64,000 nucleotides of DNA from a virus, in the UHGV virus genome UHGV-0076294. One strand, 5' to 3'. Made by a program: the position numbers and the translations under genes. Of the stretch, positions 9,126-12,087 are shown piece after piece. Within the stretch, counting starts at the first letter, position 1, and each line of letters opens with the position of its first letter. The notes below the pieces were generated by a model that was not told the DNA's origin, did no database searches, and was given only the letters and a program-made list of their open reading frames with translations.

Positions 9126-9650
9126 ATGGATATTTTAATTCAGCTTCGTAAGAAAACAACCATTGCCACGCCGATAGCGTTAGAGGAGAAAATCTCTGGC
9201 GCGGTTGCACGCAAGCTCTGTGGTGCTCACGGCTTTAGCAGTCATCAGGAACAGGTCGTTACTGCCGCCACATTACACAACTTACGGCACACAGTACATT
9301 ACTGTTTAGCTGACAACGTCACCATCACTCTTGATGATGGCGCAGCAGCCGACCAACTGCGTCGTGAAATTGACCACAAGATCGGCGTTTATAAAAGACG
9401 TTTTGATCGTGCCTGTGCACGTTTAACCGATGACAAGGAATTATGGAAACGTTTGAAACTTGAAATTGAGTATGCGGCGCAGCGTTACGGGATTGGCGGT
9501 ACCGAACCGTTGCTGTCCGAACAAGAAATCATGTTAGCAATCGAAGTTTACATCACCGTTTGTATCGCCATCCTGAAAGAAACCGACTACGAAATTACAA
9601 AAGCGTTGTTAAACACCGCAGACAGACTCACCCCAATTTTAGGACAGTAA
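9126..9650 (+). CDS. hypothetical protein
   Basis: 174-aa ORF, SD AAAGGGG upstream, 2-nt spacer. Confidence 0.75.
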   Translation: MDILIQLRKKTTIATPIALEEKISGAVARKLCGAHGFSSHQEQVVTAATLHNLRHTVHYCLADNVTITLDDGAAADQLRREIDHKIGVYKRRFDRACARLTDDKELWKRLKLEIEYAAQRYGIGGTEPLLSEQEIMLAIEVYITVCIAILKETDYEITKALLNTADRLTPILGQ

Positions 9651-9651
9651 A

Positions 9652-10137
9652 ATGAACTTAAATGCAATTATCAATCTCTCTAATAGCGACATTGTCCACG
9701 AGTTTCTGAACCACTGCGATCGCACAGAACAGTCTATCCGTAACATGTTAGCTCCGAAAACAGTGGATGCCATTTGGATAGCTTCACAGGCAGCGGGCGT
9801 TATCGTTGCAAGATATCGCGCGACATTACTAATGAGTCTGGACATTTTCTTCGATCGACCAGGGCCTATTACATGGACTTCTATCGGACGTCGGCTTTAT
9901 GACATACGTATCGAAACCCTACGCTCGATAATTAATGGCTGGCACAACGGGTATATGCCTGACGTAATAGTACCCTACACTGTTCCCGAATGGCGACGCT
10001 TTTATAGTCAGATTTGGAGTAATGAAAGCGTTTATCATGAAATAGTGGCTCTTATCAGTGCTGACCAAAGCCAACTTGCATACCAGCTATGGGAGTGGCT
10101 AAAAGCTAATTATCCTGATTACGTCAAAATCGACTAA
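9652..10137 (+). CDS. hypothetical protein
   Basis: 161-aa ORF with a 1-nt spacer; followed by a terminator at 10143. Confidence 0.75.
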   Translation: MNLNAIINLSNSDIVHEFLNHCDRTEQSIRNMLAPKTVDAIWIASQAAGVIVARYRATLLMSLDIFFDRPGPITWTSIGRRLYDIRIETLRSIINGWHNGYMPDVIVPYTVPEWRRFYSQIWSNESVYHEIVALISADQSQLAYQLWEWLKANYPDYVKID

Positions 10138-10142
10138 TAGAC

Positions 10143-10174
10143 ACCCTAGCTTCGGCTAGGGTTACTTTATTTTT
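10143..10174 (+). terminator. rho-independent terminator with UUCG loop
   Basis: ACCCTAGC ttcg GCTAGGGT, then TACTTTATTTTT. Confidence 0.75.
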
Positions 10175-10196
10175 AACCATTTTAGGAGAATATACC

Positions 10197-11129
10197 ATGT
10201 ATTTGTACAAAAGTAAAAAAGTAAAAGGTATTAAAGACTGCCTTAGACAAATGGGGAGTCAGCATCTAGAAAATGTCATGGAAGAAAATCAAACAAAAGA
10301 AAATCCTGTCTCGAAATGGATAAAAAAGAATCGTAATCATCTAACCAATAGCTTTATACCGTATAATGAAGATTTAGGTCTCAAAGATCCACGTTCCCTT
10401 CACGCTCAAACATTGGCAATTGGATGGCTATACGGCGGGGCTTCCTTAATATCCGATCGAGCACTTAGAGAACTTGTTTTTGAGACTGAGATGCCCAGTA
10501 AATTCCCTGAAGAATGGTTGGACTTTATACCTACTTGGACTGTGGCAATCGATGTAGGTAAAGAGGATGAGACTTTCTTTCTCGGTTATCGAAAAAATGG
10601 GAAGAGAAGGTTTATTATAATTGCTACAAATACTGATTACGGGTTAACAGAAGGCGTTACCACGATTGCCACTTGTTCGTTAGAGCTTCGTAGTGCAGGA
10701 AACGGACTTGTGGAAATCGACTATGCCGACGGTGTGGAGAACGAACAAGAAAAGATGCTATGGTTATCTCTGGCCAAAGCCGCCACATCGATGATATTTC
10801 TGTGTACGCTAATCCCACCTAATCTCAAAACGTCTTACAATGACGTTAAGTTCAAAGAAATCAAAAAGAACGGCAGTATTAGCTACGAAGTCAAACCTCG
10901 TGAACGTGATGTTAAAGTGGATATCACACCAGGACAAGTAAAATATCTAAAAGGATTTAACACCGACTTGAAAGCCATGCAGGGTATCAAACACGCTAAA
11001 GCTGCGCACATTCGTCGTGCCCACTGGCGTAGATACTGGGTTGGTCCAAGAAACGGTGAAAGAAAAAGAAAACTTTGCTGGATTCCACCGACATTTGTTC
11101 GCGGCTACGTACCCCACACGCAAGACTAG
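10197..11129 (+). CDS. hypothetical protein (tandem paralog B1) with basic C-terminal motif AAHIRRAHWRRYWVGP...CWIPPTFVRGY
   Basis: 310 aa, SD TAGGAG. Blocks LGWLYGGASLISDRALRELV and the C-terminal 40 aa align with the next ORF. Confidence 0.85.
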   Translation: MYLYKSKKVKGIKDCLRQMGSQHLENVMEENQTKENPVSKWIKKNRNHLTNSFIPYNEDLGLKDPRSLHAQTLAIGWLYGGASLISDRALRELVFETEMPSKFPEEWLDFIPTWTVAIDVGKEDETFFLGYRKNGKRRFIIIATNTDYGLTEGVTTIATCSLELRSAGNGLVEIDYADGVENEQEKMLWLSLAKAATSMIFLCTLIPPNLKTSYNDVKFKEIKKNGSISYEVKPRERDVKVDITPGQVKYLKGFNTDLKAMQGIKHAKAAHIRRAHWRRYWVGPRNGERKRKLCWIPPTFVRGYVPHTQD

Positions 11130-11139
11130 GAGAATTATA

Positions 11140-12024
11140 ATGTTAAGACGCAGAATTTATGGAGACACGCTTCGACGTATTAGTGAAGCTATAGAGACTG
11201 CACACAAAGACTTGTTTGGTCTGAAGGAAGATCGTTTTCTAACGTTTGTCAGGGAACACAAGAGGCAACTTCCTGTAACCTTTCTGCCCGTTAACGACCC
11301 AACGTACCGTGTGTTCGGCACCACCAAACAGGTGCCGTATTCTATTCGCCAATCGTTAGGTTTGGGCTGGCAATACGCAGGTATTGAAATTATCTCTGAT
11401 AAAGAGTTGATGGGACTACTTGCAGACACAGAACGTTTAACGGATATTCCGTACGCGTGGATTGAAGCAATTCCTTCATTCACCTTTTCCGTGACTGTAA
11501 AGATTAACGAACTACCCGCTACGCTCTTTATCGGTCGTCGTAAATTCGAAGGTGAGGAAGTATTGTTCGTTTTACGATGGGTGGAGATAAATCAGCGGCA
11601 CTGTTGGTCAACCAAGATTTATCGGTTCAACAGAAAGGCAGATGACTTTGTTAGTTTAGAGCCTTACTTTGCTAACGAGTCAAAGGACGAGGAACTTCTG
11701 GATGAGGTACATATCGGTTTATATCTTTCCTCGCGGGTGAAGAAATCGGAACGCGAGAGACGGGAATACCGTGGTAGAACGACACGTTACGTACCTGATA
11801 CAGAAATCCTCCCACGCAGAGAACCTGTCGTCGTTGACGTAAGTCCAGTACAACGCGAAGACTTAGAAAAACAACGCAGGGAAGGCAGGAGAATCTGTTT
11901 AACGCCTCATCGCGCAGCACACATACGCAGGGCTCATTGGAAACGGGTCTGGTGTGGGCCAATGACAGGACCACGCTGGCAGGAGTGGCGATGGATTGCA
12001 CCCACCTTTATATCTGGTTTTTAA
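11140..12024 (+). CDS. hypothetical protein (tandem paralog B2) with C-terminal motif AAHIRRAHWKRVWCGP...RWIAPTFISGF
   Basis: 294 aa from ATG 11140 (SD TAGGAG 7 nt upstream). The track ORF from GTG 11017 overlaps the upstream gene and is probably an artefactual extension. Confidence 0.8.
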   Translation: MLRRRIYGDTLRRISEAIETAHKDLFGLKEDRFLTFVREHKRQLPVTFLPVNDPTYRVFGTTKQVPYSIRQSLGLGWQYAGIEIISDKELMGLLADTERLTDIPYAWIEAIPSFTFSVTVKINELPATLFIGRRKFEGEEVLFVLRWVEINQRHCWSTKIYRFNRKADDFVSLEPYFANESKDEELLDEVHIGLYLSSRVKKSERERREYRGRTTRYVPDTEILPRREPVVVDVSPVQREDLEKQRREGRRICLTPHRAAHIRRAHWKRVWCGPMTGPRWQEWRWIAPTFISGF

Positions 12025-12039
12025 TGTGAAAATAAAGAT

Positions 12040-12087
12040 TACCCCTAGACCACAAGGTCTAGGGGTAGCTTTTACTTTTTATTTTTT
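12040..12087. terminator. bidirectional terminator
   Basis: 12-bp stem TACCCCTAGACC acaa GGTCTAGGGGTA with flanking A- and T-runs, between convergent genes. Confidence 0.8.

What the first reader, a model, noticed from the sequence alone, without database searches (positions are those of the whole stretch)
10197..12024. Tandem paralogs sharing a conserved basic C-terminal signature AAHIRRAHW[RK]R.W.GP...(R/C)WI(P/A)PTF(V/I)(R/S)G(Y/F)
The 310- and 294-aa ORFs share a central block (LGWLYGGASLISDRALRELV versus LGWQYAGIEIISDKELMGLL; IPTWTVAIDV versus IPSFTFSVTV). They also share a nearly identical final ~36-42 aa (11001-11126 and 11914-12021) rich in His/Arg/Trp. The C-terminal element looks like a nucleic-acid-binding or nuclease-type motif, but I cannot place it in a named family. 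Duplication with strong conservation of only the tail suggests the tail is the functional core.
Basis: seen in the sequence. Interest (0 to 1): 0.55.

Follow-up and report, generated by a model that had tools for sequence, protein, structure and literature searches.

The report
Two AcrVA2-like genes in jumbo phage
The two adjacent genes are diverged copies of the known AcrVA2/FinQ family, whose founding member shuts off one chosen protein by destroying its mRNA while it is being translated; the shared His/Arg/Trp tail is that family's essential motif, so the finding is real but falls in a known family.

Summary
ORF A (10197-11129, 310 aa) and ORF B (11140-12024, 294 aa) are true paralogs over their full length (25% identity, E 4e-26). 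Their basic tails begin with an identical AAHIRRAHW.

Four results support this:
- A profile built from A, B and 45 homologs hits the AcrVA2 crystal structure at E 2.5e-38 over its full length.
- All five residues whose mutation impairs AcrVA2 are conserved in both copies.
- The family is large, with 642 representative clusters.

The window is a chimallivirus-like jumbo phage. It is 98% identical to a 222-kb "plasmid" of Enterobacter ludwigii.

Copy number at this site is 0, 1 or 2 among related phages. In this lineage the first ~205-217 codons of A, and separately the upstream 161-aa ORF, exist as deeply diverged alleles. These alleles recombine on a 95-100% identical backbone, while A's C-terminal module and B stay constant.

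The most likely function is two nascent-peptide-directed mRNA silencers with different targets that are not Cas12a. The targets are unknown. Verdict: a new member of a known kind, of moderate interest.

The parts
10143..10162 (+). Terminator-like hairpin (ACCCTAGC-TTCG-GCTAGGGT followed by a T-run) just after the upstream 161-aa ORF. It marks the left edge of the two-gene unit.
   Evidence: Consensus scan and sequence read. Pattern match only; not shown to function.
10184..10188 (+). Shine-Dalgarno AGGAG, 8 nt upstream of the ATG of ORF A.
   Evidence: Sequence read.
10197..11129 (+). ORF A, 310 aa, an AcrVA2-like (PF26125) protein. It is the positional and closest sequence counterpart of the single-copy gene in Asesino (gp235) and in SPN3US-like phages.
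10197..10845 (+). Variable module of ORF A: codons 1 to about 205-217, covering the N-terminal helices, the central beta-sheet and the long helix. It exists as deeply diverged alleles in otherwise 95-100% identical phage genomes. By analogy with AcrVA2 it is the inferred target-recognition part.
   Evidence: 59-82% nt identity here against 95-100% in the flanks; mismatches are dense up to 10808-10845. (dS 1.3-1.5 here against about 0.2 in the C-terminal part; omega about 0.2). (secondary structure).
10422..10478 (+). Conserved N-terminal block of A (GWLYGGASLISDRALRELV). It contains W77 and D87, the equivalents of AcrVA2 W79 and D89.
10846..11129 (+). Constant C-terminal module of ORF A (residues about 217-310). 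It is 95-100% identical in nucleotides among all lineage members, whichever N-terminal allele they carry.
11007..11027 (+). H-I-R-R-A-H-W of ORF A (H271, R273, H276, W277). This is the family's invariant HxRxxH motif and corresponds to AcrVA2 H286/R288/H291.
   Evidence: Function of the motif in AcrVA2.
11128..11132 (+). Shine-Dalgarno AGGAG for ORF B. It overlaps the TAG stop of ORF A and lies 7 nt before the ATG. The A stop and the B start are 10 nt apart, which implies co-transcription.
   Evidence: Sequence read.
11140..12024 (+). ORF B, 294 aa, the second AcrVA2-like (PF26125) protein. It is highly conserved (97-100% aa) within the lineage and is absent from all cultured-phage records searched.
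11365..11421 (+). Conserved N-terminal block of B (GWQYAGIEIISDKELMGLL), containing W77 and D87.
11920..11940 (+). H-I-R-R-A-H-W of ORF B (H261, R263, H266, W267).
12039..12068 (.). Bidirectional terminator-like hairpin (12-13 bp stem) between ORF B and the convergent 251-aa gene. It marks the right edge of the unit.
   Evidence: Consensus scan. Pattern match only.

Best explanation
ORF A and ORF B are two anciently diverged members of the AcrVA2/FinQ family (Pfam PF26125, 'AcrVA2-like'). They sit as a co-transcribed accessory pair in a chimallivirus-like jumbo phage of Enterobacter.

By homology with AcrVA2, each protein most likely works in two steps. Its N-terminal and middle domains recognise a short peptide in one specific target protein as that protein emerges from the ribosome. 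Its conserved basic C-terminal beta-domain (HxRxxHW...W.GP...WIPP) then triggers loss of that protein's mRNA, so the target is never made.

Because the recognition parts of A and B share only 7-28% identity, they probably silence two different targets. These targets are most plausibly host defence proteins or proteins of competing mobile elements, not Cas12a.

Shown here: family membership, fold, conservation of all mutationally defined residues, purifying selection, and accessory status with modular allele exchange. Inferred: the mechanism and the kind of target.
For: **Family membership.**
- phmmer of A hits only AcrVA2 in the PDB (E 1.9e-4, tail plus a collinear N-terminal stretch).
- The profile of A, B and 45 homologs hits AcrVA2 at E 2.5e-38 over profile positions 16-307 and chain residues 14-318.
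- Orthologs 95-99% identical to A and B carry precomputed PF26125 'AcrVA2-like'.

**Functional residues.** AcrVA2 W79, D89, H286, R288 and H291 correspond to A W77, D87, H271, R273, H276 and to B W77, D87, H261, R263, H266. In AcrVA2, the H286A, R288A and H291A mutants keep binding Cas12a but lose mRNA down-regulation.

**Real genes.** Omega is 0.02-0.2. Both have AGGAG ribosome-binding sites. The pair is present in all 10 lineage genomes examined.

**Accessory, arms-race-like behaviour.**
- Copy number at the same site is 0 (phiEaH2), 1 (Asesino, EC001) or 2.
- The N-terminal and middle module of A is swapped between deeply diverged alleles while the C-terminal module stays constant.
[quoted passage not shown] They also report that homologs occur on plasmids and megaphages, mostly in hosts without Cas12a.
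Against: - No target is known, and no experiment exists on any phage member of this clade.
- Only 11-16% identity to AcrVA2, so functional transfer is long-range.
- How the tail causes mRNA loss is unknown even for AcrVA2. That mechanism still rests mainly on a preprint, conference reports and a review.
- Expression of A and B is inferred from selection and signals, not measured.
- The local Pfam copy lacks PF26125, so a direct hmmscan returned nothing. The Pfam assignment therefore rests on precomputed hits for near-identical orthologs.
Confidence: 0.6

Rival explanations
1. They are literal anti-CRISPRs against Cas12a (type V-A), like AcrVA2 itself.
For: They belong to the family whose founding member inhibits Cas12a. 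Al-Shayeb et al. listed AcrVA2-like proteins of huge phages as candidate Acrs.
Against: - The recognition domains are only about 11-16% identical to AcrVA2.
- Marino et al. report that homologs are typically in bacteria without Cas12a.
- The apparent host is Enterobacter. From general knowledge, not tested here, Enterobacteriaceae carry type I-E/I-F systems rather than V-A.
- Relatives are Chimalliviridae, whose phage nucleus already shields DNA from DNA-targeting CRISPR (stated).
- Two diverged copies argue against one shared target.
Confidence: 0.05
2. The basic His/Arg/Trp tail is itself a nuclease or a general nucleic-acid-binding module. The proteins act directly on DNA or RNA without recognising any polypeptide.
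For: - Tail pI is 11.6-11.8, rich in Arg, His and Trp.
- The His and Arg residues are invariant, which is compatible with catalysis.
- AcrVA2 activity ends in mRNA loss.
Against: - There is no Pfam, NCBIfam or PADLOC nuclease hit.
- AcrVA2 does not inhibit DNA cleavage by Cas12a in vitro. [quoted passage not shown]
Confidence: 0.12
3. They use AcrVA2-like chemistry for a different purpose: FinQ-style competition with other mobile elements (co-infecting phages, prophages, plasmids), or phage-directed shut-off or regulation of particular host or phage housekeeping genes, rather than counter-defence.
For: - FinQ, a plasmid homolog, inhibits F-plasmid conjugation and lowers tra mRNA levels.
- The phage can persist with its host as a circular 222-kb episome, a situation where inter-element conflict matters.
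Against: Nothing discriminates this from counter-defence at present. Presence/absence variation and allele swapping fit conflict genes of either kind. They fit housekeeping regulation poorly.
Confidence: 0.2
4. One copy is a decaying, non-functional duplicate.
For: B lies on a long branch, outside the group formed by A and the single-copy genes.
Against: - B is intact, 97-100% conserved in protein, with omega 0.03-0.13.
- B keeps every invariant family residue.
- B models confidently into the AcrVA2 fold.
- A is likewise under purifying selection in both of its modules.
Confidence: 0.03

Closest known systems
AcrVA2 (Moraxella bovoculi prophage anti-CRISPR; PDB 7CI1/7CI2; Pfam PF26125 AcrVA2-like)
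   Same: - Size is about 300-320 aa, with the same order of N-terminal helical part, central beta-sheet domain and small C-terminal beta-domain.
- The profile match covers the full length at E 2.5e-38.
- The HxRxxHW...W.G...W..P tail and the W/D pair in the N-terminal block are conserved.
- Both are encoded on a mobile element.
   Different: - Only 11-16% identical.
- The host is probably Enterobacter, and the carrier is a lytic, nucleus-forming-type jumbo phage rather than a Moraxella prophage.
- No adjacent AcrVA1-like partner gene was identified.
- Two tandem diverged copies are present.
- The target is almost certainly not Cas12a.
FinQ (fertility-inhibition protein of I-like/F-like E. coli plasmids)
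   Same: According to Marino et al., FinQ is an AcrVA2 homolog with the same C-terminal HxR domain and a divergent N-terminus. It lowers mRNA levels of a competing element's genes. It is therefore precedent for family members with targets other than Cas12a.
   Different: FinQ is plasmid-borne and acts on F tra genes. tblastn of A against 72,556 plasmids found only the phage episome itself.
phrog_6160 and the single-copy genes of cultured Chimalliviridae (Asesino gp235, EC001 MGA_211, SaP7, ChrisDB, the pEa_SNUABM series, AD1, Alexandra)
   Same: They occupy the same genomic slot: after the run of 160-180-aa ORFs and before the convergent 251-aa gene and the UvsX-like gene. They have the same length and the same tail (KAHMRRAHW...WIPPTFV). 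Identity is 20-32% to A.
   Different: These phages have one copy, and phiEaH2 has none. All are annotated 'hypothetical protein'. The B type is not found in any cultured phage record.
Shewanella phage vB_SbaS_Y11 ORF43 (putative AcrVA2)
   Same: It is another cultured-phage member of the family, recognised through structural similarity to 7CI1.
   Different: It comes from a 62.8-kb siphovirus, is present as a single copy, and is much closer to AcrVA2 (about 38% similarity reported).

Membership tests
AcrVA2-like (Pfam PF26125) / AcrVA2-FinQ superfamily | Significant full-length sequence match to the family or its founding member | tested here: met
   - phmmer of A against AcrVA2: E 1.9e-4.
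- Profile A2 against 7ci1_A: E 2.5e-38, profile positions 16-307 against chain residues 14-318.
- PF26125 is precomputed on orthologs 95-99% identical to A and B.
- Caveat: the local Pfam library lacks this model, so direct hmmscan gave no hit. B alone has no phmmer hit in the PDB.
AcrVA2-like (Pfam PF26125) / AcrVA2-FinQ superfamily | AcrVA2 fold (helical N-terminal part, central beta-sheet domain, small C-terminal four-strand beta-domain) | tested here: met
   - AF2 models have pLDDT 84.5 (A) and 84.2 (B).
- Foldseek gives E 1.7e-9, probability 1.00.
- Predicted C-terminal strands are 271-273, 276-282, 290-296 and 299-301 in A.
AcrVA2-like (Pfam PF26125) / AcrVA2-FinQ superfamily | C-terminal HxR(xxH) motif required for mRNA down-regulation (AcrVA2 H286, R288, H291) | tested here: met
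   The residues are A H271/R273/H276 and B H261/R263/H266. They are invariant in 47/47 aligned family members and align to AcrVA2 'HIRRGHW'.
AcrVA2-like (Pfam PF26125) / AcrVA2-FinQ superfamily | Conserved N-terminal W and D (AcrVA2 W79, D89), whose mutation partly inactivates AcrVA2 | tested here: met
   W77 and D87 are present in both A and B, with the same 10-residue spacing. In alignment A2, W occurs in 42/47 and D in 31/47 sequences.
AcrVA2-like (Pfam PF26125) / AcrVA2-FinQ superfamily | Encoded on a mobile genetic element (phage, prophage, plasmid or megaphage) | tested here: met
   The window carries a phage multisubunit RNAP beta subunit, a tail sheath and a terminase. Its closest isolates are Erskinevirus, family Chimalliviridae.
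AcrVA2-like (Pfam PF26125) / AcrVA2-FinQ superfamily | Activity: binds a specific nascent polypeptide and causes translation-dependent loss of its mRNA | not testable with these tools
   This needs expression, RNA-seq and co-immunoprecipitation. It has been shown only for AcrVA2.
Anti-CRISPR type V-A (functional class) | Inhibits Cas12a interference; the host encodes Cas12a | not tested
Indirect evidence argues against it: the Enterobacter host clue, and homologs mostly occur in genomes lacking Cas12a.

The most novel reading that the evidence does not exclude
The pair may be a modular counter-defence cassette of a nucleus-forming-type jumbo phage. In this reading a constant C-terminal 'mRNA-kill' module is combined, by recombination within the phage population, with interchangeable recognition modules: the alleles of A's first ~205-217 codons, plus the separate B copy. 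The phage could then retarget nascent-chain-directed silencing to whichever cytoplasmic defence proteins, or rival-element proteins, its current Enterobacter host makes. That would give the first natural non-Cas12a targets of the AcrVA2 family. It would also be a natural demonstration that the family is reprogrammable by domain swap.
Probability: 0.3. Interest if true: 0.65.

Novelty: new member of a known kind. Interest (0 to 1): 0.35.

Why it matters
AcrVA2 is so far the only bacterial example of a protein that recognises a nascent polypeptide and eliminates its mRNA. According to Marino et al., the targets of its roughly 1,800 homologs outside Cas12a hosts remain an open question, and so does the chemistry of the C-terminal motif.

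This locus offers a tractable case for three reasons:
- It has two diverged copies side by side.
- It has natural allele swaps that separate a variable recognition module from a constant effector module.
- A bacterial isolate, Enterobacter ludwigii 51A:C, appears to carry the same phage.

Identifying the targets would show what a DNA-shielded jumbo phage still needs to silence in the cytoplasm. It would also test whether the family can be retargeted by exchanging modules.

As a discovery, however, it is an annotation of known-family members. AcrVA2-like genes in huge phages have already been reported.

Tried and rejected
**Searches that found nothing.**
- Direct Pfam hmmscan of A, B and close orthologs gave no hit because the local library lacks PF26125.
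- NCBIfam and PADLOC gave no hits.
- PHROGs gave only phrog_6160, function unknown.

**Weak or limited searches.**
- The narrow 7-sequence profile (A1) hit AcrVA2 only weakly (E 0.017). Broadening it with hits from the representative library was needed.
- The word-indexed homolog search returned only 2-8 close relatives per query.
- B alone gave no PDB hit by phmmer.

**Hypotheses rejected.**
- Recent tandem duplication or gene conversion as the cause of tail identity. The tails differ at most synonymous positions, there are no long direct DNA repeats, and the tree places B outside the group of A plus the single-copy genes.
- Point-mutational positive selection in A's variable region. dS is raised 7-10-fold together with dN, and omega stays about 0.2. 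This points to allele replacement by recombination.
- A third copy elsewhere in the window. hmmsearch of the six-frame translation finds only A and B.
- The GTG-extended 335-aa version of B. It is rejected in favour of the ATG at 11140.

**Other.**
- The upstream 245, 180, 174 and 161-aa ORFs are not paralogs of A, B or each other by BLASTP.
Full report
**1. Observation**

The region holds two same-strand ORFs: A (10197-11129, 310 aa) and B (11140-12024, 294 aa from the ATG). The mechanical ORF list extends B to a GTG at 11017.

Each ATG is preceded by an AGGAG: at 10184-10188, and at 11128-11132, where it overlaps A's stop codon. Gene calls in related contigs give 310/311 aa and 294 aa.

BLASTP of A against B gives 25% identity across about 300 columns, E 4e-26. 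The pair are real paralogs over their whole length.

The quoted blocks and tail coordinates are correct, apart from one letter (IGW, not LGW). The tails are 21/36 identical, begin with an identical AAHIRRAHW, and have pI 11.6 and 11.8. Identity by 30-residue block peaks at 60% in the tail and 45% at residues 61-90. Other fully aligned blocks score 7-28%.

**2. What it is**

Local Pfam, NCBIfam and PADLOC return nothing. PHROGs places both proteins in phrog_6160, function unknown.

A phmmer search of the PDB with A returns a single hit, the anti-CRISPR AcrVA2 (7ci1/7ci2), at E 1.9e-4. The tails align as HAKAAHIRRAHWRRYWVGP...WIPPTFV against HTKRPHIRRGHWHGYWQGT...WQPAVFV, with a weaker collinear N-terminal stretch.

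An exhaustive HMMER search of 1.84 billion representative proteins with a profile of A, B and close relatives finds 642 clusters at E<=1e-3. The listed best hits are mostly 300-380 aa, with the motif near the C-terminus.

A 47-sequence alignment of full-length members shows H271, R273, H276, W281, G283 and W295 (A numbering) invariant. Its profile hits AcrVA2 at E 2.5e-38 over essentially the whole chain.

Proteins 95-99% identical to A and B carry the precomputed Pfam family PF26125, named 'AcrVA2-like' in the contig tables. The local Pfam copy simply lacks that model.

AlphaFold2 models of A (pLDDT 84.5, pTM 0.78) and B (pLDDT 84.2, pTM 0.77) match only AcrVA2 among solved structures:
- Foldseek gives E 1.7e-9.

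No nuclease fold is detected.

**3. What the family does (literature)**

Marino et al. (bioRxiv 10.1101/2022.11.29.518452) report the following for AcrVA2:
- It lowers Cas12a mRNA and protein more than ten-fold, independently of promoter and codon sequence.
- It binds the N-terminal Cas12a polypeptide at an LSKT motif.
- It needs the target to be translated.
- It is inactivated by H286A, R288A or H291A in the C-terminal region, and these mutants still bind Cas12a. W79A and D89A cause moderate loss.
- How the mRNA is destroyed is unknown.

They also report about 1,800 orthologs on plasmids and megaphages, mostly in bacteria without Cas12a. FinQ, a plasmid fertility-inhibition protein that lowers F tra mRNA, is a homolog with a similar C-terminal domain and a divergent N-terminus.

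A 2026 review and 2025 conference abstracts repeat this picture. Al-Shayeb et al. had already noted AcrVA2-like proteins in huge phages.

Counting along the alignment, PDB chain numbering is offset by +1 from the paper. With that offset, the five mutationally defined residues map as follows:
- A: W77, D87, H271, R273, H276.
- B: W77, D87, H261, R263, H266.

All five are conserved in both copies.

**4. Genomic and evolutionary context**

*The phage.* The window encodes a phage multisubunit RNAP beta subunit, a tail sheath, a terminase and a giant tail-fibre-like protein. Its nearest cultured relatives are Erwinia phages phiEaH2, Stratton and Asesino, at about 75% nt identity in a conserved stretch. 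These belong to genus Erskinevirus, family Chimalliviridae.

A 22-kb stretch of the window is 98.3% identical to 'plasmid unnamed1' of Enterobacter ludwigii 51A:C (222,441 bp, circular, non-mobilizable). This record also carries the gene pair. That 'plasmid' is evidently the same phage, and Enterobacter is the likely host.

*The unit.* The pair is bracketed by terminator-like hairpins at 10143-10162 and 12039-12068. Upstream is a run of 160-245-aa ORFs of unknown function. Downstream are a convergent 251-aa gene, a 99-aa gene and a UvsX-like gene.

*Copy number.* At this same slot Asesino and the SPN3US-like EC001 have one copy, and phiEaH2 has none. All ten genomes of the window's own lineage have two. 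tblastn finds one place per record in the 32 phage records matched by A and the 13 matched by B, and no B-type gene among them. The window has no third copy.

*Age of the duplication.* A neighbour-joining tree groups A with the single-copy chimallivirus genes and leaves B outside that group (85% bootstrap for the split). Both fall within a jumbo-phage clade (82%). The tails differ at most synonymous positions. The duplication is therefore old, or B has evolved fast. Either way, the shared tail is kept by selection on the protein, not by gene conversion.

*Selection.* Both genes are under purifying selection, with omega 0.02-0.2.

**5. A modular hot spot**

Against relatives that are 95-100% identical in nucleotides on either side, the interval from about 9650 to 10845 drops to 59-82% identity or lower. 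It comprises the upstream 161-aa ORF and the first ~205-217 codons of A.

In A's N-terminal and middle part, dS is 1.3-1.5 between allele classes. This compares with about 0.2 in A's C-terminal part and about 0.15 in B, and omega stays about 0.2. The pattern fits replacement by anciently diverged alleles, not rapid point mutation.

The 161-aa ORF alleles and the A alleles assort independently:
- L013 has the window's A allele with another ORF161 allele.
- L014 has the window-like ORF161 with another A allele.
- L007 has a near-window A allele with a 45%-identical ORF161.

L006 has the 161-aa ORF twice.

The constant part of A (residues about 217-310) contains a beta-hairpin, a helix and the four-strand C-terminal domain carrying the HxRxxHW motif. 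The variable part contains the N-terminal helices and the central sheet. By alignment, this part corresponds to the AcrVA2 region holding residues E98, D129 and D195, which contact a Cas12a peptide in 7CI2.

This variable-recognition, constant-effector layout is an inference from homology, not a demonstrated fact.

**6. Most likely mechanism and rivals**

*Best explanation (about 0.6 overall).* Family membership is about 0.97; AcrVA2-like mechanism is about 0.5-0.6. A and B are probably two nascent-peptide-directed mRNA silencers with different, non-Cas12a targets. They are used as accessory conflict genes.

*Literal anti-Cas12a function (about 0.05).* This is unlikely given the Enterobacter host clue, the very divergent recognition domains, the statement of Marino et al. 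that most homologs lack a Cas12a context, and the Chimalliviridae relationship.

It has no support from profiles or fold searches. It cannot be excluded, because the chemistry of the motif is unknown.

*FinQ-like inter-element competition or regulatory shut-off (about 0.2).* This is a variant of the main explanation that differs only in the kind of target.

*Pseudogenisation of one copy (about 0.03).* The selection data contradict this.

**7. Novelty and verdict**

However, the genes belong to a described family (PF26125), and AcrVA2-like genes in huge phages have been reported. This is a new member of a known kind.

The added value here has four parts:
- Explicit placement of phrog_6160 and the chimallivirus 'hypothetical proteins' in the AcrVA2 family.
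- The 0/1/2 copy-number series.
- The recombining recognition module.
- The host clue.

Interest is moderate (0.35). It would rise to about 0.65 if the modular-retargeting reading were confirmed and targets were identified.

Noticed in passing
window 9652-10137 (161-aa ORF); L006 2941-3426 and 3456-3941; L003, L007, L008, L014: The 161-aa ORF just upstream of ORF A is hypervariable among otherwise 95-100% identical phages. Protein identity to the window copy is 86%, 73%, 45%, 44% and 33%. It is duplicated in tandem in L006. Its alleles assort independently of the ORF A alleles. It has no PHROG, Pfam-type or PADLOC match. It may be a second conflict gene in the same hot spot.
   Followed up: partly
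L014 = NZ_CP134650.1 (Enterobacter ludwigii 51A:C 'plasmid unnamed1', 222,441 bp, circular): This RefSeq/PLSDB 'plasmid' is 98.3% identical to the window over 22 kb and carries the same gene order. It is therefore a jumbo-phage genome co-assembled with its host and filed as a non-mobilizable plasmid. It gives the likely host (Enterobacter) and hints at a carrier or pseudolysogenic state.
   Followed up: partly
L015 (phiEaH2 JX316028.1 110941-112237): phiEaH2 has no AcrVA2-like gene at the syntenic slot. The 164-aa ORF is followed directly by the convergent 251-aa gene, whereas its genus-mate Asesino has one copy. This is presence/absence polymorphism within a single genus.
   Followed up: yes
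Klebsiella phages vB_KpM_FBKp24 (MW394391.1 167470-167655) and vB_KpM_Centimanus (OZ240615.1 244687-244863): The tail of ORF B (residues about 226-294) matches 'hypothetical proteins' of roughly 300-kb Klebsiella jumbo phages at 43-45% identity (E about 3e-4). AcrVA2-like tails therefore occur in further jumbo-phage groups.
   Followed up: no
window 11017-11139: A GTG-initiated extension of ORF B (335 aa) overlaps the 3' end of ORF A in another frame. It is judged an artefact of mechanical ORF calling, because the ATG at 11140 has a ribosome-binding site and matches the orthologs.
   Followed up: yes
window 9126-9650 (174-aa ORF): There is a faint PADLOC match to BrxC/PglY (E 0.0097, 46 residues). 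It is probably chance.
   Followed up: no
window 10143-10162 and 12039-12068: GC-rich hairpins with T-runs flank the pair, and the second reads as a terminator on both strands. This suggests a discrete transcription unit. No sigma-70-like promoter lies upstream of A, as expected for a phage with its own RNA polymerases.
   Followed up: partly
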